A stretch of DNA of 64,000 nt from Candidatus Harrisonbacteria bacterium. GTDB taxonomy: Bacteria > Patescibacteriota > Minisyncoccia > UBA6257 > 1-14-0-10-44-23. Under the pieces are notes generated by a model. It was not told the DNA's origin. It worked only from the letters and a program-made list of their open reading frames with translations, and ran no database searches. Below, piece after piece: positions 223-62,764 of the stretch. Both the position numbers and the translations under genes were made by a program. The DNA lies in NCBI GenBank assembly GCA_023255625.1, contig JAHFLF010000001.1, positions 185,766 to 249,765 on the forward strand, written 5' to 3'. The stretch's first letter is position 1, and the number at the start of each line of letters is the position of its first letter.

Positions 223-485
223 ATGGCTGTATTCTAGGCCTCCAGGTGAAGACGCGCAAGTTGTAGGTAATCTTTTTTGAAGGTATCATATACGCAACAA
301 CTTAATAGCAGTGTGACCTAACCTCTCCGAGCAATCGGGCAGCATGGTCTTAAGCCCTCAACAGTAAAAAGCTCCTAGTCAGAGCGCTGTTGAGGCCATA
401 TCGGGAAACTGGTATGGGTGCCGCAAGGCATCGCTGGCTGGGGGCTTTTTGTTCGTCAGCCAGCATAACGATTAAAAATATCATT

Positions 486-4678: not shown

Positions 4679-5137
4679 TTAGCGCTTCGCCCACTGCGGA
4701 GCACGGCGGGCTTTCTTGAGTCCGTATTTCTTGCGTTCAACATGGCGCGGATCGCGGGTCATGTGGCCGTCGCGGCGCTGGGCTTTGCGAAGTTCCGGAT
4801 CATGCGCAACCAGCGCGCGGGCAATACCATTTCTGACTGCATCTGCCTGGCCCATCATGCCACCGCCATACACATGCGCTGAAACTCCAACCGCATCCTG
4901 CATCTGTGCTGTGATGAGCGGCGCCATAACCGTTGCCTGCTGGCGAAGAGTTGGGAAATACTTTTTAAAATCCTTGCCGTTGACCGTGATACCTGAATGC
5001 TTTGGAAAAATACGCACCTGGGCTGAAGCCGTTTTACGGCCGCCGATGCCCTGCTTATAGCGACCAGTAAATCCGCCGTGCTTAGCCGGTGCTGCGTGCT
5101 CTGCCTTTACTTCTGATTTTGTTTGTTTTGTAACCAT
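4679..5137 (-). CDS. rpsI: 30S ribosomal protein S9
   Basis: C-terminus ...HVERKKYGLKKARRAPQWAKR and a conserved S9 core (GRKTASAQVRI, GGGMMGQADAVRNGIARAL). Confidence 0.9.
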   Translation of the reverse strand: MVTKQTKSEVKAEHAAPAKHGGFTGRYKQGIGGRKTASAQVRIFPKHSGITVNGKDFKKYFPTLRQQATVMAPLITAQMQDAVGVSAHVYGGGMMGQADAVRNGIARALVAHDPELRKAQRRDGHMTRDPRHVERKKYGLKKARRAPQWAKR

Positions 5138-5146
5138 GGTATTCGT

Positions 5147-5246
5147 TAATTTTCAATTTCTAATTTTCAATTTTCAAACAATGATTTAATTTCTAAATTG
5201 ATACATTGGAAATTGTTTAGAAATTAGAAATTGAGAATTGAAAATT
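5147..5246. repeat. AT-rich palindromic intergenic element (family R2), copy 1
   Basis: aattttcaatttctaattttcaattttcaaacaatg...cattggaaattgtttagaaattagaaattgagaattgaaaatt. The two arms are reverse complements. Near-identical copies at 23912-23998 and 62656-62764. Confidence 0.7.
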
Positions 5247-5607
5247 ACCTCTCTATCTTAAGTCTATTCATCCTCACCTGCCGCAGTTTATTCTTCGGCA
5301 GCATGTTAAACACGGCATACTCAACAATGCGCTCCGGGGTGCGCTTACGCATCTCCTCTACCGGCTTTTCGCGCAAGTGGCCCTGGTAACTGGTGTGATG
5401 ATAATACATCTTATCTGTCTCTTTTTTACCGGAAAACTTTACCTTTGCCGCATTCTTCACAATCACGCGATTGCCGCCAGCAAGGCGCGGCTCATACGCG
5501 GCCGAGGTCTTGCCCTGCAGAATGGCAGAAATCTTCGTGGCTAAGCGGCCAACGATTTGGCCCTCTGCATCAATCACAAATTCTTTTATCTTTTCTTTTG
5601 TTTCCAT
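5245..5607 (-). CDS. rplM: 50S ribosomal protein L13
   Basis: VIDAEGQIVGRLATKISAILQGK...MYYHHTSYQG... is the L13 core. Start at the second Met (METKEK) is preferred; the ORF extends to 5634. Confidence 0.9.
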   Translation of the reverse strand: METKEKIKEFVIDAEGQIVGRLATKISAILQGKTSAAYEPRLAGGNRVIVKNAAKVKFSGKKETDKMYYHHTSYQGHLREKPVEEMRKRTPERIVEYAVFNMLPKNKLRQVRMNRLKIER

Positions 5608-6001: not shown

Positions 6002-6070
6002 TCAGTTAGTCAGTTAGTTGGTTAGTCAGTTAGTTGGCGGGATGATTTTCGGTTTTAGCTGACTAACTTT
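6002..6070. repeat. GTTAGTTRG micro-repeat hairpin (family R1), copy between rplQ and rpoA
   Basis: ttcagttagtcagttagttggttagtcagttagttggcgg...ttttagctgactaactttttt. Inverted arms gttagtcag / ctgactaac. Confidence 0.6.
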
Positions 6071-6071
6071 T

Positions 6072-7512: not shown

Positions 7513-7612
7513 ATTAGTTACAAGTTTTAAAGTTTATCAAGTTGTAAAGTTGGGGAATGCGTCATCTTGTTTTCCTTGATGAACTTGAAAAACTTGATGA
7601 ACTTTATGAACT
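7513..7612. repeat. Intercistronic repeat family R3 (AAGTTTATCAAGTT / TTGATGAACTTGAAAAACTTGATGAACTT), copy 1
   Basis: agttacaagttttaaagtttatcaagttgtaaagttgg...ttgatgaacttgaaaaacttgatgaacttt. Arms are partly reverse-complementary. Copies at 8069-8170 and 20666-20768. Confidence 0.65.
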
Positions 7613-7613
7613 C

Positions 7614-8066
7614 TTAAATTCTCCGGACTTTCCTCGGTTTAGGACCGTTATGCGGAATCGGAGTTACATCGTGGATAGATAATACATCAAACCCCTGATT
7701 CACAAAGGAGCGGACGCTGGAATCCCGACCGCCGCCGATGCCATTTAAGAAGATGCTAACTTTTTGCAGTCCGGCCTTGCGCAGCTTTTCAGTCAAAGCC
7801 GAGACAACCTTACTGGCAGCGAACGGAGTTGCTTTTTTTGGCCCGCGAAAACCCAGACTGCCGGCGGTGCTCCAGGCCACCAAATTTCCCTTCTCATCAG
7901 TAACTGAAATAATTGTGTTGTTGTAGCTGGCCTTAACATAGACATTACCCCGATCAAATTTCTTGGTAACGGATTTTGCCGAGGTTGCCGCAACAGCACC
8001 CTCGATGGCGCTGGCCTGCCCTATTGCCTCTGCGTCAGTTTGTGTGCCGACTTTTTTCTTACCCAT
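7614..8066 (-). CDS. rpsK: 30S ribosomal protein S11
   Basis: NVYVKASYNNTIISVTDEKGN...GFRGPKKATPFAA...GGGRDSSVRSFVNQGFDVLSIHDVTPIPHNGPKPRKVRRI. Confidence 0.9.
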   Translation of the reverse strand: MGKKKVGTQTDAEAIGQASAIEGAVAATSAKSVTKKFDRGNVYVKASYNNTIISVTDEKGNLVAWSTAGSLGFRGPKKATPFAASKVVSALTEKLRKAGLQKVSIFLNGIGGGRDSSVRSFVNQGFDVLSIHDVTPIPHNGPKPRKVRRI

Positions 8067-8068
8067 GG

Positions 8069-8170
8069 GTTTAGTTACAAGTTCTTCAAGTTTATCAAGT
8101 TATAAAGTTGGAACGATTTCATCCGGTTTTTCATTTGCTTGATGAACTTGAAAAACTTGATGAACTTTTT
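8069..8170. repeat. Intercistronic repeat family R3, copy 2
   Basis: gtttagttacaagttcttcaagtttatcaagttataaagttgg...cttgatgaacttgaaaaacttgatgaactttttac. Confidence 0.65.
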
Positions 8171-8171
8171 A

Positions 8172-8555
8172 CTACTTCAGGTCTACCTTTCGTTTACCGC
8201 TACCAGCCGTTTTACGAGTATTGCCCCGCACCGTACGCGAGTTGGTTTTGGTGCGCTGACCGTGAACCGGCAAACGGCGAGCGTGACGGCTGCCTCGGTA
8301 CGAGCCCATTTCTTTGAGCATAGCTATATTTTGTCGAACCACACTGCGCAGCTCTCCTTCAATCTTGAATTTCTTTTCAATATAATCCTTGATTTGGTTA
8401 ACTTCAGATGCATCTAAATCTTTGGCCTTCTTGCCAACCGGGATGCCAACCTGCTTGATAATCTCAATTGCCCGAGCCGGCCCAACGCCGTAAATATAGC
8501 GAAGAGCAACTTCGATTCGTTTATTGTCTGGAATTGTGATACCGGCGATACGCAT
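8172..8555 (-). CDS. rpsM: 30S ribosomal protein S13
   Basis: MRIAGITIPDNKRIEVALRYIYGVGPARAIEI...GSYRGSRHARRLPVHGQRTKTNSRT. Confidence 0.9.
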   Translation of the reverse strand: MRIAGITIPDNKRIEVALRYIYGVGPARAIEIIKQVGIPVGKKAKDLDASEVNQIKDYIEKKFKIEGELRSVVRQNIAMLKEMGSYRGSRHARRLPVHGQRTKTNSRTVRGNTRKTAGSGKRKVDLK

Positions 8556-8557
8556 GA

Positions 8558-8652
8558 TCAGTTGGTTAGTTACTTAGTTAGTTGGTTAGTTAGCAGATTC
8601 GGGGTTCTTGGTTTTTACAAACTAACTAGCTAACCAAGTAACCAATTAACTT
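8558..8652. repeat. GTTAGTTRG micro-repeat hairpin (family R1)
   Basis: cagttggttagttacttagttagttggttagttagc ... aaactaactagctaaccaagtaaccaattaac. Imperfect inverted arms. Confidence 0.6.
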
Positions 8653-8659
8653 ACCCGCC

Positions 8660-8773: not shown

Positions 8774-8880
8774 GATGATTTAACTGGTTACTTAGTTAGC
8801 TGGTTAGTTTGTTAGTTAGCGGGTTCAGGTTTTTGGTTTTTACTAACTAACCAACTCACTAACTAACCAAGTAACTCCTA
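8771..8880. repeat. GTTAGTTRG micro-repeat hairpin (family R1)
   Basis: ggttacttagttagctggttagtttgttagttagcgggttcaggtttttggtttttactaactaaccaactcactaactaaccaagtaac. Long imperfect inverted repeat. Confidence 0.6.
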
Positions 8881-9096: not shown

Positions 9097-9238
9097 TGAT
9101 TGGGAAAGTATACTCGATGAGGAAAAATATGTCAACCAATCAGTAATCGCTAACACGCGAATACAGACAAATACACGAATAGAATCTTGGGTTCATTTGC
9201 GTATTAGTCTTGATTGGCATGTTCGCGATTACTGTTGA

Positions 9239-15078: not shown

Positions 15079-15146
15079 AAAAAGGTGGCTGTGTAATTTT
15101 TCGGCAAACGGGGTTCTATTGCCGAAAAATTACACAGCCACCTTTT
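15079..15146 (-). terminator. Intrinsic terminator (27-bp perfect stem hairpin with flanking T/A runs) downstream of clpB; potentially bidirectional
   Basis: aaaaggtggctgtgtaatttttcggcaa-acggggttctat-tgccgaaaaattacacagccacctttt. U-run follows on the minus strand (ttttctcgtttcg). Confidence 0.75.
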
Positions 15147-17887: not shown

Positions 17888-17980
17888 AGAGTAATCGCTA
17901 ATATTCTAATAGCTAATAACGCTAATAAAAACTAAAGCGAATTCGCATTATTCGATATTCGCATATTAGCGAACACTCGG

Positions 17981-19246: not shown

Positions 19247-19318
19247 GCGGCGGGCATTTTGGTTTTTGCAGCCATCCCGTAGGGTGGGCCCGGCTGCAAA
19301 AACCAAAATGCCCGCCGC
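19247..19318. repeat. Long perfect hairpin, family R4 copy A (27-bp stem, conserved 18-nt loop)
   Basis: gcggcgggcattttggtttttgcagcc-atcccgtagggtgggccc-ggctgcaaaaaccaaaatgcccgccgc. Directly 3' of the cysteine desulfurase gene. Confidence 0.8.
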
Positions 19319-19324
19319 ATCGTA

Positions 19325-20611
19325 CTATTGTTTTATAGATGATAACACGGTTAAGACCCGATCAATCTCTGCATCCGTTGTTAGCCGCCCCAAACTAAAA
19401 CGAATACTATTTTTAGCCCGGGTGCGGTCAAAGCCCATCGCAAGTAAAACATGCGAGGGGTCAATGGACCGGGCGGAACAGGCCGAGCCGGAAGAAACGG
19501 CTATACCTGCCAGGTCGAGCGCTACAAGCAGCTGCTCCCCTGACCGCCGAGGAATAAAAATATTAAGATTATTTGGAAGTCGACCTTGTGCGCCTCCGTT
19601 AAGTACTACACCGGGGAAAATAATTTTATTTCCTTTAAAAAGCTTGTCGCGTAATTTGGCGATTCTTTGAAATTCTTTTGAGCGCAGTGCCGATGCAATT
19701 TCCACGGCCTTAGCAAATCCGACAATCGCCGAGACATTCTCTGTACCGCTGCGAAGGCCGAATTCCTGACCACCGCCAGTCAGGATAGTGAGTAGTGAGT
19801 AGTGAGTAGTGAGTAGCTTTGAGGCAGGGACGCGACGGGCATACAAACATCCAATACCTTTTGGGCCATAAATTTTATGCGCAGAAAGCGTCATCAAATC
19901 AACTCCGAGCGCATCAACATTGCAGTCTAAATACTGAAAGGCCTGAACCGCATCAACATGAAGGAGAGGATAGTTACTTGGTTGCTTAGTTAGTTGGTTG
20001 GTTGGTTGAGAGGCGCGAAAATCGTTAACGATTTTCGCGATTTCTGCGATTGGCTGGACCGTCCCAACTTCATTGTTAGCGTACATAACTGAAACTAGTA
20101 CAGTCCGCTCGTTCAGCGCAGCTTTGAGTTTTTTTAGATCAACAATGCCTTCCCTTGAAACTGGAATAAGCACTACATCCACTCCGTCTTTTTCTAAATC
20201 ACGCGCCGTCTCTAGCACCGACTCATGTTCAATCGCGGAAATAATTAGGCGAGGTATGAATTTTCCATTCTTCATTCTTAATTGGTCATTCATCATTTGC
20301 TTTACGCTCCCGCGTAAAGCAAGATTATTCGCCTCTGTCGCACTCCCCGTAAAAATAATCTCGCTGTAGTGCGCACCGATAGCGCCGGCAATCGTCTGCC
20401 TTGGCTTAAATACCGCCGCACTCGCTGCTTGCCCAAATGAATGCAAAGACCCCGGATTTCCAAAGCTGGTTGCTTGGTTAGTTGGTTGCTTGGTTAGTTG
20501 GTTGGGAAACGATGCGCCAAACCACGGCAGCATGGCTTCAAGCACGCGCGGGTCAAGCGGAGTGGTGGACGCGTAATCAAGATAAATTCTTTTTTGCTTC
20601 ATAAAGCTCAT
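19325..20611 (-). CDS. Cysteine desulfurase (IscS/NifS family, PLP-dependent) carrying three in-frame repeat-derived insertions
   Basis: SAHKIYGPKGIG (PLP Lys), HVDAVQA, GGGQEFGLRSGT, SSGSACS. Extra segments PNQLTKQPTNQATS, SQPTNQLTKQPSNYP and LLTTHYSLLTIL are encoded by GGTTAGTTGG / AGTGAGT micro-repeats. Confidence 0.85.
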   Translation of the reverse strand: MSFMKQKRIYLDYASTTPLDPRVLEAMLPWFGASFPNQLTKQPTNQATSFGNPGSLHSFGQAASAAVFKPRQTIAGAIGAHYSEIIFTGSATEANNLALRGSVKQMMNDQLRMKNGKFIPRLIISAIEHESVLETARDLEKDGVDVVLIPVSREGIVDLKKLKAALNERTVLVSVMYANNEVGTVQPIAEIAKIVNDFRASQPTNQLTKQPSNYPLLHVDAVQAFQYLDCNVDALGVDLMTLSAHKIYGPKGIGCLYARRVPASKLLTTHYSLLTILTGGGQEFGLRSGTENVSAIVGFAKAVEIASALRSKEFQRIAKLRDKLFKGNKIIFPGVVLNGGAQGRLPNNLNIFIPRRSGEQLLVALDLAGIAVSSGSACSARSIDPSHVLLAMGFDRTRAKNSIRFSLGRLTTDAEIDRVLTVLSSIKQ

Positions 20612-20665
20612 AGTACGGCTAAAATCCTATTTGCAAAATACACTAAGTTGCATCATACTGCAACT

Positions 20666-20768
20666 ATTAAGTTTTTAAAGTTCATCAAGCAGAAAGTTAT
20701 CAAGCAAGAAATTTCCGCCCCTTCATTCCCACTTGAAAAACTTGATGAACTTTAAAACTTGATGAACT
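20666..20768. repeat. Repeat family R3, copy 3 (upstream of fur)
   Basis: aagtttttaaagttcatcaagcagaaagttatcaagcaag...cttgaaaaacttgatgaactttaaaacttgatgaactcc. Confidence 0.6.
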
Positions 20769-23255: not shown

Positions 23256-23330
23256 GCCGCGCCTGAAATTGCATTTTACAGCCATTCGCTTGCGATGAGC
23301 CCGGCTGTAAAATGCAATTTCGGGCGCGGC
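23256..23330. repeat. Long hairpin, family R4 copy B (28-bp stem, conserved 19-nt loop)
   Basis: cgccgcgcctgaaattgcattttacagcc-attcgcttgcgatgagccc-ggctgtaaaatgcaatttcgggcgcggc. Confidence 0.8.
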
Positions 23331-24591: not shown

Positions 24592-24600
24592 TGAACCCTG

Positions 24601-24674
24601 CGCGGTGGCAATATGTTTTTGCCAGCCATTCGCTTGCGATGGGCCCGGCTGGAAAAAACATATTGCCACCGCGC
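24601..24674. repeat. Long hairpin, family R4 copy C
   Basis: cgcggtggcaatatgtttttgccagcc-attcgcttgcgatgggccc-ggctggaaaaaacatattgccaccgcg. Confidence 0.8.
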
Positions 24675-24726: not shown

Positions 24727-24804
24727 TCACGAGCCATCAGTTTGCATTTTGAAGCCATCCCGAAGGGTGAGCCCGGCTTCAAAATGCAAACTGATGGCTC
24801 GTGA
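24727..24804. repeat. Long hairpin, family R4 copy D (30-bp perfect stem)
   Basis: tcacgagccatcagtttgcattttgaagcc-atcccgaagggtgagccc-ggcttcaaaatgcaaactgatggctcgtga. Confidence 0.8.
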
Positions 24805-48664: not shown

Positions 48665-48784
48665 GATAAAGGGATTAGAGGGATTAGCCGTGGTATACTT
48701 TCAAAAAGCCGTTCTTTAATCTATAGCGCTAGAAGCTTCTAGCAACTTCTAGCCGCTTCTATCACATCTAATCCCTCTATCCCC
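48664..48784. repeat. Repeat family R5 (CTAGAAGC/GCTTCTAGCAACTTCTA palindromic units), copy 1, with embedded extended -10 TGGTATACT
   Basis: gggattagagggattagc...gctagaagcttctagcaacttctagccgcttcta...ctaatccctctatcccc. Outer inverted repeat plus a 16-nt perfect palindrome gctagaagcttctagc. Confidence 0.6.
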
Positions 48785-51826: not shown

Positions 51827-51840
51827 CCGTATTCGCCAAC

Positions 51841-52407
51841 ATGCGAGTTCAAACCGAGACACTAAAAAAACGACATTGTTTTTATTCGCGTATTTGCGTA
51901 AATTCGCATGTTCGCGATTACTGCCGAGGATTCAGTCTAATCGAGATGCTGATCGTCATCGGCATCATCGCAATAGTTGGAACCGGCGGTGCGCTATACC
52001 TGGGCAATAATGATCCGGGCATTCGGCTTGAGAGAACAACCAGCCGAGTTGTAACTTTTATTCGAAATGCCCAGCAAAAGGCAACAAATCAGGAAGAAAA
52101 TGTTCGCTGGGGCGTCTATGTTGATAACCTGGACTCAAGCCAGCCGACATTGTCCATTTTCAAAGTTGTTGAAGAACTTGCTGCTGATCCTGACCACGAC
52201 GGAATTGATGGACTCTCGATGGAGCGGATCATCCTCTCCGGCAACCTACAGCTGCTGACACCTGCGAGCGGAACATCTTCAGATATTCTTTTTGCAAAAG
52301 GAACTGGTCTGCCGGAAACCCCAAGAACAATTGTGATTGCAACTGCTGACAGCCAAATCCAAAAAACAATCAGTATTGACGGAAACGGCCGCATCGACAG
52401 CCAATAA
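51841..52407 (+). CDS. Prepilin-type N-terminal domain protein (minor pilin/pseudopilin-like); start uncertain
   Basis: GFSLIEMLIVIGIIAIVGTGGALYL is the class III signal core. The unusually long leader if ATG 51841 is used suggests an unrecognised downstream start. Confidence 0.55.
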   Translation: MRVQTETLKKRHCFYSRICVNSHVRDYCRGFSLIEMLIVIGIIAIVGTGGALYLGNNDPGIRLERTTSRVVTFIRNAQQKATNQEENVRWGVYVDNLDSSQPTLSIFKVVEELAADPDHDGIDGLSMERIILSGNLQLLTPASGTSSDILFAKGTGLPETPRTIVIATADSQIQKTISIDGNGRIDSQ

Positions 52408-52446: not shown

Positions 52447-53958
52447 ATGGACCGCTTCTCTCATCGTGGTCAATCGCTTATTGAACTGGTCGTTGCCATC
52501 GGCATCGGCATTCTTTTAATTGTTGGCGCTATAGGCGCGCTCACTGTTTCATTACGGCTGGAGAGCCAGAGCTCTCACAGCCAGCCGGCTCTGGAACTCG
52601 CCGGTGAACTATCGCAGCGGCTGCACACTATCGCAAATAATGACTGGCATGCCCTGGATGGAATTGCAACCAGCAGCCAATCAGTAACCAATCAATATAA
52701 AATCTCGACCACCACCACTTTTTATGCGATTGCGCCCGGCTACACTAATGTAACCCTAAATGCGATCACCTATCGGCAATATTTCCTGCTAGAAGATGTA
52801 TTTCGAGATGCCAGCGATAGCTTGGTGAGCTCGGGCGGAATTTTCGATCCCTCAACTCGCAAAGTAACCCTCGTAGCAGAGTGGGACGAGTATGGCCAAA
52901 CGAGCGATGTCCGCTTTGTCTCGTATCTTACCAGAATTCGTAATCGCCTTTGGACGCAGACTAACTGGGCGGGCGGCCCTGGCTTAAACGGCCCCAGCCC
53001 CAACCCAGGCCCGAATTTCGCCAGCGAAACCAATATTAAATATGATTCTGCGGGTGAGATAACAATCAACGATTTAACTGCAAATCTGGCCGCCACTAGT
53101 GGCAACGGCATTGACCCTGTCTATCGCTATGCCCGCAATGATGTTATCGGTTGGCTAGACTTCGGCGCCTACAACAATGTAACTTTTGCGCCAAATTCCT
53201 CGGCAACATACTATGGCTCAAGTTCAGTTGGTTATATTGCCCTCGACTGCGCCACATCTCCCGGGGGCAACATTTGTGAAATCTCACCCTTTGGCGTTAA
53301 AGAAAATGGTAGTGGAATTCTTTCCGGATTTGGCTGGAATGATACAATCGGCTGGATCAGCTTCAATTGTGATCACACCGGAGATGTTATCAGCCAAAAC
53401 AACTGCGCGAGTCAGGGTGGCTTTGACTATAATGTCAGCATTGACCAGACAACCGGATTTTTCTATGGCTGGGCCTGGAACGATGCAGTGGGCTGGATCA
53501 GCTTCAATTGCGATCATAAGACCGACGGTACCTTACAACCGGAAAATCTGAACATTTGCTCGACTAGCCGTGGCGGAACCAATCAATCTGATTATGCCGT
53601 AAAAACCGGCGCCTCTACTGTTTCAACTGCCAATCTTGTCTCAACGATTTTAGATACAACTAGAGCGCCCGGTGTCTCAATAAATTCCTTGACTTGGAAT
53701 GGCACTCAACCGGTGGGTACAAATGTCCTATTCCAGATAGCCACCGGCAATGATGCGGGGAATATGCCAGGATTTGTCGGCCCGGATGGAACGGCCAATA
53801 CCTTTTACCGGCCAATCGCCCCCGGACTCCTAATGAAAATTAATAAAGCAAATCATCCGGACGCACAATATTTGCGCTACATGATCTTTCTTGAATCAGA
53901 CCCTTCGCAAACCAATGCGCCGACGGTTCAAGATATACAAATAAACTATACGCTCTGA
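52447..53958 (+). CDS. Large minor pilin-like protein (prepilin N-terminus plus about 450-aa beta-rich domain with GWISFNCDH repeats)
   Basis: GQSLIELVVAIGIGILLIVGAIGAL. Internal repeats IGWISFNCDHTGD / VGWISFNCDHKTD. Confidence 0.6.
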   Translation: MDRFSHRGQSLIELVVAIGIGILLIVGAIGALTVSLRLESQSSHSQPALELAGELSQRLHTIANNDWHALDGIATSSQSVTNQYKISTTTTFYAIAPGYTNVTLNAITYRQYFLLEDVFRDASDSLVSSGGIFDPSTRKVTLVAEWDEYGQTSDVRFVSYLTRIRNRLWTQTNWAGGPGLNGPSPNPGPNFASETNIKYDSAGEITINDLTANLAATSGNGIDPVYRYARNDVIGWLDFGAYNNVTFAPNSSATYYGSSSVGYIALDCATSPGGNICEISPFGVKENGSGILSGFGWNDTIGWISFNCDHTGDVISQNNCASQGGFDYNVSIDQTTGFFYGWAWNDAVGWISFNCDHKTDGTLQPENLNICSTSRGGTNQSDYAVKTGASTVSTANLVSTILDTTRAPGVSINSLTWNGTQPVGTNVLFQIATGNDAGNMPGFVGPDGTANTFYRPIAPGLLMKINKANHPDAQYLRYMIFLESDPSQTNAPTVQDIQINYTL

Positions 53959-54434
53959 TGAAAACTATAAACTGTAAACTGAAAACTACAAATTCTGTGC
54001 GCCGCAGGCGAACCACCGGCATTGCAGCACTGCCGGTCATGCTGCTGCTTGGTGGTATCATTATCGAAGCGGCCATCGCTGGGGCCTTTATCCTCTACTA
54101 TGTGAACAGCGGCGTCTACGGCACAAAATTAGCCACCCAATCTTCGATCTTGGCCCACGCAGCCGTGGACGATGCTATTTTCCGAATAATATTAAATCCA
54201 AATTGTGGCAACGATACCAGCTGCCTGGGCACCGGAACACCTTTTACATTTACTGCCGGCGGTGGCAATGCGCAGGTTACGATCGAAAAAGATACGCCGT
54301 CTAGCGGATTGACCCAAATTACCGCCACCGCAGAAACATTGGGCAAAGAGCACCGAGTTGTTGCAATCGTTACAACCAGCAGCACGGCGCCACTGGTAAC
54401 GATTCGTTCAATCATCGATCAACCAGAACAATGA
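53958..54434 (+). CDS. Hypothetical pilus-associated protein (N-terminal TM/pilin-like hydrophobic segment)
   Basis: TGIAALPVMLLLGGIIIEAAIAGAFILYYV. Located in the pilus operon; pilX-like role is inference only. Confidence 0.4.
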   Translation: MKTINCKLKTTNSVRRRRTTGIAALPVMLLLGGIIIEAAIAGAFILYYVNSGVYGTKLATQSSILAHAAVDDAIFRIILNPNCGNDTSCLGTGTPFTFTAGGGNAQVTIEKDTPSSGLTQITATAETLGKEHRVVAIVTTSSTAPLVTIRSIIDQPEQ

Positions 54435-62291: not shown

Positions 62292-62665
62292 TCTCTGTTG
62301 CTGTTCTTGATGTGTCGGCTAAAAGGTACGAGAAAAAAATTACACATGCAGCCCACGAGCTTGTCATTCTTTTATCTATTACAAGAAAGCATGTTGATAT
62401 CCTGCTCGTTGGCGACAAGCAGATGCAAAAAAATGTTCTGGCCTTTCCGGCCGATCCTGGCTTCCCCCGCCCAGACCTAACTGAACCATCGCTTGGCGAG
62501 ATTCATCTAAACCCAACATATATTCAAGCGCATAATGAAGACTTATTACTCATGCTCACACATGGATTTCTACATCTGCTTGGCTACGATCACGAGAACA
62601 GCCGTGATAGAATAGTGATGGAGAAAAAGGAGCGAGAACTTCTCGCGAAACTGGCTAATTTCTAA
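62288..62665 (+). CDS. ybeY: rRNA maturation endoribonuclease YbeY
   Basis: LTHGFLHLLGYDHE is the H-x3-H-x5-H zinc motif. Confidence 0.8.
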   Translation: MISVAVLDVSAKRYEKKITHAAHELVILLSITRKHVDILLVGDKQMQKNVLAFPADPGFPRPDLTEPSLGEIHLNPTYIQAHNEDLLLMLTHGFLHLLGYDHENSRDRIVMEKKERELLAKLANF

Positions 62666-62764
62666 TTTAAAATTTCTAATTCCTAAACAATTTCTAATGT
62701 TTTAATTTTGAAATTTAAGCATTGAGATATTGTTTGAAAATTGAAAATTAGAAATTGAAAATTA
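62656..62764. repeat. AT-rich palindromic element family R2, copy 3 (diverged)
   Basis: aatttctaatttaaaatttctaattcctaaacaatttctaatg...cattgagatattgtttgaaaattgaaaattagaaattgaaaatt. Confidence 0.6.

What the first reader, a model, noticed from the sequence alone, without database searches (positions are those of the whole stretch)
19325..20611. Three in-frame insertions of the intergenic GTTAGTTGG-type micro-repeat inside the cysteine desulfurase gene
Seen in sequence:
- The DNA segments at 20466-20508, 19975-20010 and 19787-19815 are the same simple repeats that form intergenic hairpins in the ribosomal operon (ggttgcttggttagttggttgg... and agtgagtagtgagtag...).
- On the coding strand they translate in-frame as PNQLTKQPTNQATS, SQPTNQLTKQPSNYP and LLTTHYSLLTIL.

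Inference:
- These insertions interrupt otherwise canonical IscS/NifS motifs, such as the FGNP...H..FG region and the region before HVDAVQ.
- The PLP-Lys (SAHKIYGPKG) and active-site Cys loop are intact.
- An essential Fe-S/thio-cofactor enzyme has therefore absorbed three copies of a genomic micro-repeat without losing its frame. They are either tolerated surface-loop expansions or elements removed post-transcriptionally.
Basis: seen in the sequence. Interest (0 to 1): 0.65.

Follow-up and report, generated by a model that had tools for sequence, protein, structure and literature searches.

The report
Hairpin-repeat arms translated inside IscS
A cysteine desulfurase gene of an uncultured Patescibacteria (CPR) bacterium carries four short, in-frame, translated pieces of the same repeat elements that form hairpins just upstream of start codons elsewhere in the genome, and the same four protein loops hold such pieces in related genomes, so this one housekeeping gene is a recurrent host for them.

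Summary
ORF 19325-20611 (-) is an intact IscS/NifS-type cysteine desulfurase. It holds four, not three, in-frame stretches of periodic DNA whose units (7, 8/16 and about 4 nt) are not multiples of three.

- **Match to intergenic repeats.** Two stretches (CCAACTAAC type) match the arms of intergenic hairpins in the ribosomal-protein operon, with up to 18 of 19 bases shared. The (TAGTGAG)x4.4 array has no other copy in the window.
- **What the hairpins are.** They are dispersed repeat families that follow gene orientation and end 2-20 nt before an ATG.
- **Orthologues.** In 20 Paceibacteria loci the same loops (E. coli IscS positions ~27, 92, 171, 221, 292) hold whole hairpins, either arm alone, or nothing. 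Each genome has its own repeat sequence type ("flavour"). Periodic segments are about 39 times denser in IscS than in other long ORFs.
- **Age.** The site-3 insert is shared with orthologues of 57-69% identity and is conserved at codon level (10/10 against a 34% background). It is old and held at the DNA level, not a recent invasion.
- **Fate.** All inserts are stop-free and keep the frame, and they fall in low-confidence loops of the predicted structure, so they are translated, not excised.

Best reading: colonisation of permissive loops by repeat elements, as in Rickettsia palindromic elements, followed by slippage or gene conversion. It is a new variant of a known kind.

The parts
19325..20611 (-). 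IscS/NifS-type (class I) cysteine desulfurase gene, 428 aa, intact
   Evidence: NCBIfam NifS/IscS models score E 1e-112 to 1e-101, below the equivalog cut-offs. PDB IscS chains score E 1e-82. AF2 model: pTM 0.84, Foldseek TMt 0.85-0.9 to IscS/NFS1. K246, C378, H129, D220 and Q223 are invariant in alignment A1.
20462..20508 (-). Site 1 insert (aa ~35-50, FPNQLTKQPTNQATS). The sense strand is a CCAACTAACCAAGCAA 16-nt unit x2.4. It sits just before the FGNP motif, at E. coli IscS position ~27
   Evidence: TRF 100% match. 15 aa are absent from A. fulgidus IscS2. Absent in orthologues L002 and L004, present with other sequences in L003, L005 and L008. pLDDT <50. Shares 11-mers with hairpins 6012, 8573 and 8861.
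20258..20299 (-). Site 2 insert (aa ~105-118, QMMNDQLRMKNGKF). The sense strand carries GAATGAA-type 7-nt units. E. coli position ~92.
   Evidence: TRF CATTCTT x4.6 and periodicity scan. Extra relative to PDB IscS. The same flavour at the same site in L008, L013, L014 and L015; the opposite arm in L005. pLDDT 63-70.
19973..20011 (-). Site 3 insert (aa ~201-213, SQPTNQLTKQPSN). Sense strand CCAACCAACCAACTAACTAAGCAACC. It sits before YPLLHVDAVQ, at E. coli position ~171
   Evidence: 16 aa extra against A. fulgidus IscS2. Orthologous in L002, L003, L004 and L007; codon identity with L002 is 10/10 against 87/255 outside the inserts. 18/19 match to the 3' arm of hairpin 8555-8655. pLDDT about 64.
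19784..19816 (-). Site 4 insert (aa ~266-276, LLTTHYSLLTI). Sense strand (CTCACTA)x4.4, a perfect array. It lies between YARR and TGGGQE, at E. coli position ~221-231
   Evidence: TRF 100%. 7-9 aa extra against PDB IscS. Related 7-nt-periodic versions at the same site in L004, P0004 and L005. pLDDT <50 over aa 262-288. No other copy in the window. In E. coli this loop carries R220, R223 and R225, the CyaY/IscX/ThiI docking patch (PMC2854127).
8555..8655 (-). GTTAGTTGG-family hairpin element ending 3 nt before the rpsM ATG; closest source-like copy for sites 1 and 3
   Evidence: Inverted repeat I13/I19; fold dG -37.7; family alignment; rpsM identified.
8777..8877 (-). GTTAGTTGG-family hairpin element ending 8 nt before the rpmJ ATG; contains one TAGTGAG unit
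6002..6071 (-). GTTAGTTGG-family element (long 3' arm, short 5' arm) ending 4 nt before the rplQ ATG
20677..20768 (+). AAGTTCATC-family hairpin ending 4 nt before the Fur ATG (20773), in the divergent IscS-Fur spacer. It shows that these elements go with gene starts rather than gene ends
   Evidence: The orientation of this family flips with gene strand while GC skew does not.
20647..20664 (.). Fur-box-like palindrome GTTGCAGTATGATGCAAC upstream of IscS
   Evidence: The same palindrome occurs in the IscS-Fur spacers of L002-L005.

Best explanation
The four segments are translated, single-arm remnants or derivatives of a class of dispersed hairpin repeat elements.

**The elements.** Each has two arms of about 30-40 nt built from 7-9-nt (or 4/8-nt) units around a loop of about 20 nt. 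In this Patescibacteria (Paceibacteria-like) genome they follow gene orientation and fill the space immediately upstream of start codons.

**History.** Such elements entered permissive surface loops of the IscS enzyme in an ancestor of this lineage, and probably again later. The behaviour resembles that of Rickettsia palindromic elements.

**What has acted since.**
1. Slippage and/or gene conversion keep the tracts periodic and similar to the genome's own intergenic copies. This explains perfect arrays, flavours specific to each genome, and codon-level conservation.
2. Palindrome decay removes one arm in some lineages.
3. Purifying selection on an essential enzyme passes only versions that keep the frame and have no stop codon.

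The peptides are loop extensions with no shown role.

**Shown here.** The segments exist, are periodic and are in frame. They match intergenic hairpin arms. The host loops are shared hot spots in orthologues. Orthologues carry whole in-frame hairpins. Sequence sharing is stronger within a genome than between genomes. Site 3 is conserved at codon level. The inserts fall in low-confidence loops of the model.

**Inferred.** The insertion mechanism, gene conversion, arm loss, neutrality of the peptides, and why IscS is favoured.
For: 1. **Real, non-random periodic DNA in frame.**
2. **Inserted relative to solved IscS structures.** Four extra stretches of 15, about 7-10, 16 and 7 aa. They lie between secondary-structure elements, with pLDDT <50 or 60-70, while the core fold is IscS.
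3. **The intergenic hairpins are true multi-copy families.** Copies align collinearly, loops included. All end 2-20 nt before an ATG. Orientation follows gene strand while GC skew stays negative across the window.
4. **IscS sites 1 and 3 match those arms.**
5. **Shared hot spots.** In 20 Paceibacteria loci the same loops carry periodic inserts. There are 40 segments in 25.6 kb of IscS against 9 in 224 kb of other long ORFs. Neighbouring genes keep constant lengths.
6. **Whole hairpins in frame in orthologues.** L013 has two copies of about 85 nt, about 90% identical, at sites 171 and 221. L015 has three, L014 two, L006 one. L005 holds the opposite arm at site 92.
7. **Genome-specific flavours.** Different sites in the same genome share a 10-mer in 19% of pairs, against 2.2% between genomes. 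Sharing between inserts and their own flanks gives permutation p = 0.01.
8. **DNA-level conservation at site 3.** Codon identity is 10/10 (L002), 5/5 (L007) and 6/8 (L003), against a background of 0.34-0.40.
9. **Selection for an open frame.** Whole intergenic elements are stop-free in 6 of 90 frames, and 36-nt arms in 28 of 90, yet every in-gene copy is open and in frame. This also explains why this genome holds only single arms of the stop-rich GTTAGTTGG family.
10. **Precedent.** Dispersed repeats fused in frame into genes are known, for example RPE (PMC3184786).
Against: - No target-site duplication or terminal inverted repeat could be defined. Only an ambiguous TTT / 'FG...FG' duplication flanks site 1. 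No transposase or other mobilising gene was looked for, so the insertion mechanism is unknown.
- The heptamer array at site 4 has no counterpart elsewhere in the 64 kb. The rest of the genome could not be searched.
- Some arrays absorb native codons, for example NWK / AATTGGAAATTG in L008 and L009. That pattern could equally arise from local slippage.
- The roughly 39-fold enrichment rests on loci that were all chosen through IscS, on few neighbouring gene families, and on related genomes that are not independent. Other hosts exist: PGM/PMM, ClpB, FtsK.
- Plain neutral tolerance does not explain why IscS is so favoured, nor why site 3 is conserved at synonymous positions.
- Surface exposure rests on a predicted model, not on solved coordinates.
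Confidence: 0.62

Rival explanations
1. The in-gene tracts are kept because they work at the nucleic-acid level. They would be recognition or processing sites in the IscS mRNA (or DNA) for the same trans-acting factor, for example an RNase III-like enzyme or a sequence-specific binding protein, that acts on the hairpins upstream of start codons. The peptides would be passengers. IscS, which sits next to Fur behind a Fur-box-like palindrome, would be tied to that circuit.
For: Site 3 is conserved at synonymous positions between genomes whose other synonymous sites are saturated. The CCAACTAAC flavour is conserved across WIN (this window), L002, L003 and L007. Orientation is consistently gene-sense. 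IscS is strongly enriched. Whole stable hairpins persist inside orthologous coding regions. The hairpin makes up the whole 5' UTR of clpB, from the promoter to the ATG.
Against: No factor has been identified. In this window the IscS copies are single arms with no partner, so they do not form the hairpin. Flavours differ widely between genomes at the same site. Some close orthologues lack most inserts: L002, L011, L016, L019. Gene conversion from conserved intergenic copies would also give the codon-level identity.
Confidence: 0.2
2. The tracts arose on the spot by replication slippage at mutation-prone loop codons, as ordinary coding microsatellites or minisatellites, independently of the intergenic hairpins. 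The resemblance would come from a shared mutational or compositional bias.
For: Arrays are perfect and short. Some arrays incorporate native codons. This window holds single arms only. Slippage alone could generate different flavours at the same site.
Against: There are 15-18-nt matches to specific hairpin arms against about 1 expected. Orthologues carry complete hairpins with loops, and two copies of about 85 nt lie in one gene. Both arms of one flavour occur at the same site in different genomes. Units are not multiples of three, unlike selected coding repeats such as the Borg tandem repeats (PMC9879509). Sharing is stronger within a genome than between genomes.
Confidence: 0.1
3. The segments are not part of the mature protein. 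They would be removed from the mRNA or skipped by the ribosome, as with the programmed translational bypass elements of phage T4 gene 60 or yeast mitochondria, or spliced out as protein.
For: Site 1 is flanked by identical TTT codons, and removing the insert restores the canonical PYFxxxFGNP spacing. Some orthologous inserts form stable hairpins.
Against: All inserts in about 20 genomes have lengths that are multiples of three and no stops, although the parent elements are stop-rich (6 of 90 frames open). No stop or rare codon follows a putative take-off codon. At 27-45 nt they are far too short for introns or inteins, and Rfam finds nothing there.
Confidence: 0.03
4. Assembly artefact: repeat-induced misassembly placed intergenic repeat sequence inside the gene.
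For: The source is a short-read metagenome assembly. The only other contig with this gene is 100% identical over 21 kb and so is probably not independent.
Against: Four separate artefacts would all have to preserve the frame. Independent assemblies of more than 15 related genomes show the same architecture at the same loops. The site-3 sequence recurs codon for codon in another genome.
Confidence: 0.02

Closest known systems
Rickettsia palindromic elements (RPE; Ogata et al. 2000, as reviewed in PMC3184786)
   Same: A dispersed, hairpin-forming repeat family in a small genome. It occurs both between genes and fused in frame inside housekeeping protein genes, at positions the fold tolerates. 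No transposase is known.
   Different: RPEs are about 105-146 bp, belong to defined sequence families, and are scattered over many genes. Here the arms are built of 7-9-nt units. The copies in this gene are single arms of 27-45 nt. Flavours differ between genomes at the same site. One gene, IscS, holds 4-5 recurrent sites. Intergenic copies abut start codons in gene orientation. No sequence relationship was tested or is expected.
Neisseria REP2 and similar repeats lying at the 5' UTR (PMC3184786)
   Same: Repeats lying immediately upstream of ORFs that supply 5' UTR sequence, with predicted internal stem-loops. They can be fused to reading frames.
   Different: REP2 carries a promoter, a ribosome-binding site and the ATG. 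The elements here end before the ATG, show no Shine-Dalgarno sequence, and for clpB lie downstream of the promoter.
Tandem repeats in Borg elements that create disordered regions (PMC9879509)
   Same: Rapidly evolving, genome-specific nucleotide repeats that add low-complexity, probably disordered stretches to existing proteins. Homologous proteins carry repeats at similar places.
   Different: Borg repeats inside ORFs have unit lengths divisible by three and give perfect amino-acid repeats. Here the units are 7, 8/16 or about 4 nt, so the peptide is not a simple repeat and a one-unit slip would break the frame. The link to hairpin elements is also absent in Borgs.
MITEs and REP/BIME elements of bacteria (PMC3184786, PMC3733652)
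   Same: Short, non-coding, hairpin-forming, multi-copy elements, mostly intergenic and sometimes fused to ORFs.
   Different: No terminal inverted repeats with target-site duplications were found. The arms are AT-rich and periodic, not the 20-40-nt GC-rich REP palindromes with GTAG/CGTC tags.
Short tandemly repeated repetitive (STRR) heptamers of cyanobacteria (from my own knowledge, not checked here)
   Same: Genome-wide families of heptanucleotide tandem repeats of unknown function.
   Different: STRRs are described as intergenic tandem arrays. They are not paired into hairpins next to start codons and are not recurrent in-frame inserts in one enzyme.

Membership tests
IscS/NifS class I cysteine desulfurase (Aminotran_5) | Fold-type I PLP enzyme fold with full-length similarity to IscS/NifS | tested here: met
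   PDB IscS E 1e-82 over aa 9-426. Foldseek TMt 0.85-0.9 to IscS/NFS1. PF00266.
IscS/NifS class I cysteine desulfurase (Aminotran_5) | PLP-binding Lys (SxHK) and catalytic Cys in the SSGSAC loop | tested here: met
   K246 in SAHKIYGPKG and C378 in SSGSACSA; both columns are invariant in A1.
IscS/NifS class I cysteine desulfurase (Aminotran_5) | Score above the NCBIfam equivalog cut-off for NifS or IscS (assignment to a subfamily) | tested here: not met
   375 bits against a cut-off of 531 (NifS), and 338-347 against 548-643 (IscS). The family is clear but the subfamily is not resolved.
Rickettsia-palindromic-element-like in-frame repeat | Member of a multi-copy dispersed repeat family in the same genome | tested here: met
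   Sites 1 and 3 match GTTAGTTGG-family hairpins at 6002, 8555 and 8777. This does not hold for site 4.
Rickettsia-palindromic-element-like in-frame repeat | The inserted copy is itself palindromic (forms a hairpin) | tested here: not met
   The four inserts in this window are single arms with no complementary partner in the gene. Whole in-frame hairpins do occur at the same loops in L006, L013, L014 and L015.
Rickettsia-palindromic-element-like in-frame repeat | Inserted in frame in a protein gene at a site compatible with the fold | tested here: met
   The ORF is intact. The inserts lie between secondary-structure elements with low pLDDT.
Rickettsia-palindromic-element-like in-frame repeat | Sequence homology to the RPE families; about 105-146 bp | not tested
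   No RPE sequences were compared. The size of 27-45 nt here (85-100 nt for whole copies in orthologues) is shorter than RPE.
MITE | Terminal inverted repeats flanked by a target-site duplication | tested here: inconclusive
   Comparing filled and empty sites gives only TTT or 'FG..FG' at site 1 and no consistent duplication at the L013 or L015 copies.
REP/BIME | 20-40-nt GC-rich palindrome with a GTAG or CGTC tag, associated with a RAYT transposase | tested here: not met
   Arms are AT-rich, periodic and 30-40 nt, with loops of about 20 nt. No tags were seen by inspection. RAYT was not searched for.
Selected coding tandem repeats (Borg-type amino-acid repeats) | Unit length divisible by three, giving an amino-acid repeat | tested here: not met
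   Units are 7, 16 (8) and 4/12 nt. In orthologues period 7 is the commonest, with 8 and others also seen.
Phase-variable contingency locus | Non-triplet repeat within the coding sequence | tested here: met
   Units of 7 and 8/16 nt.
Phase-variable contingency locus | Length polymorphism of the array in the population, switching the frame on and off | not testable with these tools
   No reads are available. The only second contig is identical, and the 90% cluster has one member.
Translational bypass element, intron or intein | Segment not required to be in frame or stop-free; take-off and landing codons with an adjacent stop, or splice or intein motifs | tested here: not met
   All inserts are in frame and stop-free in about 20 genomes. 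There is no Rfam match. They are too short for an intein or intron.

The most novel reading that the evidence does not exclude
The periodic-arm hairpins would be a functional RNA module that follows gene orientation and is widespread in Patescibacteria. One possible role is as processing sites that turn cistrons lacking a Shine-Dalgarno sequence into near-leaderless mRNAs. A trans-acting factor would recognise their sequence flavour. The copies inside IscS would then be maintained at the nucleic-acid level, by selection or by directed gene conversion, as regulatory sites in an iron-linked mRNA next to Fur. That would make them a translated cis-regulatory element embedded in an essential enzyme, conserved as DNA rather than as peptide.
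Probability: 0.15. Interest if true: 0.8.

Novelty: new variant of a known kind. Interest (0 to 1): 0.6.

Why it matters
**Raw material for insertions.** In the tiny genomes of the Candidate Phyla Radiation, short hairpin repeat elements appear to supply insertions in housekeeping proteins, as first described for Rickettsia. Three features are unusual here:
- The repeat units are not multiples of three.
- Several sites recur in one essential enzyme across many genomes.
- One insert is conserved at the DNA level while neighbouring synonymous sites are saturated.

**Annotation.** IscS orthologues in this group range from 379 to 576 aa and score below the curated subfamily cut-offs.

**A wider architecture.** The work points to a pervasive and apparently undescribed arrangement, long hairpins abutting start codons with no Shine-Dalgarno sequence. 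This bears on how these organisms start translation and process operon transcripts.

**A natural test case.** The IscS loops offer a way to see how repeat turnover, gene conversion and purifying selection interact.

Tried and rejected
- **Rfam.** A gathering-threshold scan of the whole window gave only a LOOT RNA at 315-432 and nothing at the repeats or hairpins.
- **Literature.** Searches for Patescibacteria/CPR/Parcubacteria combined with low-complexity insertions, tandem repeats, hairpins or palindromic in-frame repeats found no report of this. They returned only analogues: Borg tandem repeats, RPE, MITEs.
- **Replication origin.** I asked whether the IscS/Fur strand switch is an origin, which could explain element orientation or density. 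GC skew stays negative across the whole window, so it is not.
- **Target-site duplications.** A search at filled and empty sites was ambiguous.
- **Independent assembly.** ENA contig L001 is 100% identical over 21.3 kb, so it gives no independent or population information.
- **Flavour-based metagenome scan.** The hits mix microsatellites that look eukaryotic with CPR-like hairpins. None of 83 hits lies in IscS, so the scan does not help judge the hot spot.
- **First periodicity threshold.** It was too strict and found only site 4, so it was relaxed.
- **Pairing within the mRNA.** Both CCAACTAAC-type inserts (sites 1 and 3) are in the same orientation, and no complementary GT-rich tract lies on the sense strand, so they cannot pair with each other.
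Full report
**The gene and the segments.** ORF 19325-20611 on the minus strand encodes a 428-aa protein. It matches NifS/IscS models over its full length, with E 1e-112 to 1e-101, although below the curated equivalog cut-offs. It also matches solved IscS structures at E 1e-82. PLP-Lys K246 (SAHKIYGPKG), catalytic Cys C378 (SSGSAC), and H129, D220 and Q223 are all present and invariant among orthologues.

- 20467-20505: a 16-nt unit x2.4, 100% match.
- 19974-20008: period 4/12.
- 19786-19816: TAGTGAG x4.4, 100% match.

A fourth periodic stretch, 20258-20299 (CATTCTT x4.6), was missed. Against A. fulgidus and E. coli IscS the protein has four extra stretches, of 15, about 7-10, 16 and 7 aa. In a periodicity scan of the 64 kb, the strongest five segments are these three plus two hairpin arms; shuffles give none. 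At a looser threshold all four IscS segments appear. The only other coding candidates are 52667-52697 and 53959-53994.

**The intergenic repeats.** The region 4.6-9.2 kb is a ribosomal-protein operon: infA, rpmJ, rpsM, rpsK, rpsD, rpoA, rplQ, rplM, rpsI. Almost every spacer there holds a long hairpin whose arms are built of short units. Other spacers do too, including those upstream of clpB, fur and several genes at 23.9-62.8 kb. Features of these hairpins:
- **Families.** They fall into at least four flavour families (AATTTTC, AAGTTCATC, GTTAGTTGG, ATTCGCG). Copies within a family align collinearly, loops included, so they are dispersed repeat families.
- **Position.** Of the 15 hairpins folded, 13 end 2-20 nt before an ATG, and no Shine-Dalgarno sequence is visible. 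No ATG lies within the folded stretch after the hairpins at 9141-9234 and 51829-51921.
- **clpB.** A TTGAAT-17-TATAAT promoter sits 2 nt before the hairpin, so the hairpin is the whole 5' UTR.
- **Orientation.** It flips with gene strand while GC skew stays negative across the window. The elements therefore follow transcription, not replication.
- **Fur spacer.** The hairpin in the divergent IscS-Fur spacer abuts the Fur ATG, so these elements go with gene starts.

**Link between in-gene and intergenic copies.** GGTTAGTTGGTTG with up to 2 mismatches gives 12 hits against 1.24 expected, essentially confined to three hairpins and IscS sites 1 and 3. Site 3 shares 18 of 19 bases with the 3' arm of hairpin 8555-8655. 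On the sense strand both sites carry the CA-rich arm, the same arm that lies next to the ATG in the ribosomal operon. The heptamer array at site 4 has no other copy in the window.

**Orthologues.** The closest proteins come from Patescibacteria metagenome-assembled genomes (Harrisonbacteria / Paceibacteria), at 50-69% identity and 379-576 aa. Four syntenic loci (Fur-IscS-HtrA-ClpB) and 15 further Paceibacteria loci were compared at DNA level. Main results:
- **Shared sites.** The same loops, at E. coli IscS positions ~27, 92, 171, 221 and 292, carry periodic inserts in most genomes. Period 7 is the commonest, with 8 and others also seen. Each genome has its own flavour. Some genomes (L002, L011, L016, L019) have few or none.
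- **Density.** Periodic segments number 40 in 25.6 kb of IscS against 9 in 224 kb of other long ORFs. Neighbouring genes keep constant lengths.
- **Whole hairpins in frame.** Several orthologues carry complete hairpins in frame. L013 has two copies of about 85 nt, about 90% identical, at sites 171 and 221. L015 has three, L014 two, L006 one, and L008 has a GC-rich one at an extra site.
- **Opposite arms.** At site 92, L005 has the opposite arm of the flavour that this window, L008 and L013 carry. This fits an ancestral hairpin that lost one or the other arm.
- **Sharing within genomes.** Different sites in one genome share 10-mers in 19% of pairs, against 2.2% between genomes. Inserts also resemble their own genome's flanking hairpins (p = 0.01).
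- **Outside the group.** More distant CPR relatives, including a Shapirobacteria genome (L041) and an unclassified bacterium (L036), also have periodic inserts at site 171, whereas the Armatimonadota (L033) and Dehalococcoidia (L050) hits are ordinary GC-rich coding sequence.
- **Other hosts.** PGM/PMM, ClpB and FtsK occasionally host inserts, so IscS is a hot spot and not the only target.

**Age and constraint.** Site 3 is orthologous in this window, L002, L003, L004 and L007. Where the residues are identical, codons are identical in 10/10 cases (L002), 5/5 (L007) and 6/8 (L003). In the rest of the gene the figure is 34-40%. This insert is therefore old, and it is kept at the DNA level either by constraint or by repeated conversion from conserved copies. 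Perfect arrays at sites 1 and 4 in an otherwise diverged gene point to recent homogenisation by slippage or conversion.

**Translated, not removed.** The predicted structure has the IscS fold (pTM 0.84; TMt 0.85-0.9 to IscS/NFS1). All four inserts lie between regular secondary-structure elements. pLDDT is below 50 for aa 35-56 and 262-288, and 60-70 for aa 101-120 and 201-210. The site-4 loop corresponds to the E. coli R220/R223/R225 patch that docks CyaY, IscX and ThiI (PMC2854127). Whole intergenic elements are stop-free in only 6 of 90 frames, and 36-nt arms in 28 of 90. Yet every in-gene copy in about 20 genomes keeps the frame and is open. That is what selection on a translated protein predicts. 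It is not expected for segments that are excised or bypassed. It also explains why only single arms of the stop-rich GTTAGTTGG family sit in this gene.

**Interpretation.** The best account has three parts:
1. Dispersed hairpin repeat elements colonised permissive IscS loops, in the manner of Rickettsia palindromic elements (PMC3184786).
2. Slippage, conversion and arm loss followed.
3. Purifying selection kept the frame open.

It differs from RPEs, MITEs and REPs, and from Borg coding repeats, whose units are multiples of three (PMC9879509). Still unexplained are the preference for IscS and the codon-level conservation. Both leave room for a role at the nucleic-acid level.

**Limits.**
- Only 64 kb of the source genome could be read.
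- All comparison loci were chosen through IscS, and the genomes are related.
- The insertion mechanism is unknown.
- Surface exposure rests on a predicted model.

Noticed in passing
window 19247-19318, 23256-23330, 24600-24674, 24727-24804 (and 15080-15146): A second class of hairpin. Stems are perfect, 27-30 bp, and unrelated in sequence. The apical loops are conserved: AGCC-atcccgWagggtgRgccc-GGCT or AGCC-attcgcttgcgatgRgccc-GGCT on the + strand. Perfect covariation of the stems around a fixed loop suggests a structure-selected element. One lies between IscS and htrA.
   Followed up: partly
15 hairpins folded, e.g. window 5138-5249, 7520-7614, 8072-8174, 17889-17978, 48671-48779, 62655-62764: Thirteen of the 15 periodic-arm hairpins end 2-20 nt before an ATG, often with ...CC/CCCC ATG, and no Shine-Dalgarno sequence is visible. 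For clpB a TTGAAT-17-TATAAT promoter sits 2 nt before the hairpin. In relatives L002 and L004 the clpB ATG is only 8 nt after a TATAAT, which is near-leaderless. The hairpins may mark processing sites or 5'-end structures in an organism that starts translation without a Shine-Dalgarno sequence.
   Followed up: partly
window 20647-20664: Fur-box-like palindrome GTTGCAGTATGATGCAAC between IscS and fur. It is conserved as GTTGCATnATnATGCAAC in the same spacer of L002-L005, so IscS and/or fur are probably under Fur control.
   Followed up: partly
window 315-432 (+): LOOT RNA (Rfam RF03000), 79 bits against a gathering score of 46. It is the only Rfam family found in the window.
   Followed up: no
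window 53959-53994: A periodic AAACTGT-type tract encodes the first 12 residues (MKTINCKLKTTN) of ORF 53958-54434, which follows a type IV pilin-like ORF (52447-53958). Alternatively it is the leader of that ORF, if the true start is the GTG at about 53998. This may be another case of a repeat arm fused to a reading frame.
   Followed up: partly
L010 2527-2564 and 3302-3334; L015 2397-2435; L017 1980-2007 and 10091-10134: Other housekeeping genes in related genomes carry in-frame periodic or palindromic inserts. These are a phosphoglucomutase/phosphomannomutase-like gene (by inspection; no family search was run), hit three times in two genomes, and ClpB and FtsK, the latter with a GC-rich palindrome translated as RRLPAGRQAA.
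   Followed up: partly
L005 4524-4722; L003 about 2462-2560: In relatives, the region just upstream of the fur ATG holds long single-arm periodic tracts (GACTTTATA x about 6 in L005; CTGATTAAC units in L003) in place of the hairpin seen in this window. The position next to the ATG is conserved while the sequence and the arm number vary.
   Followed up: no
window 4679-5137 and 7614-8066: Ribosomal proteins S9 (152 aa, domain from residue 32) and S11 (150 aa, domain from residue 40) have N-terminal extensions of about 30-40 residues outside the Pfam domain. Whether these derive from repeats was not examined.
   Followed up: no
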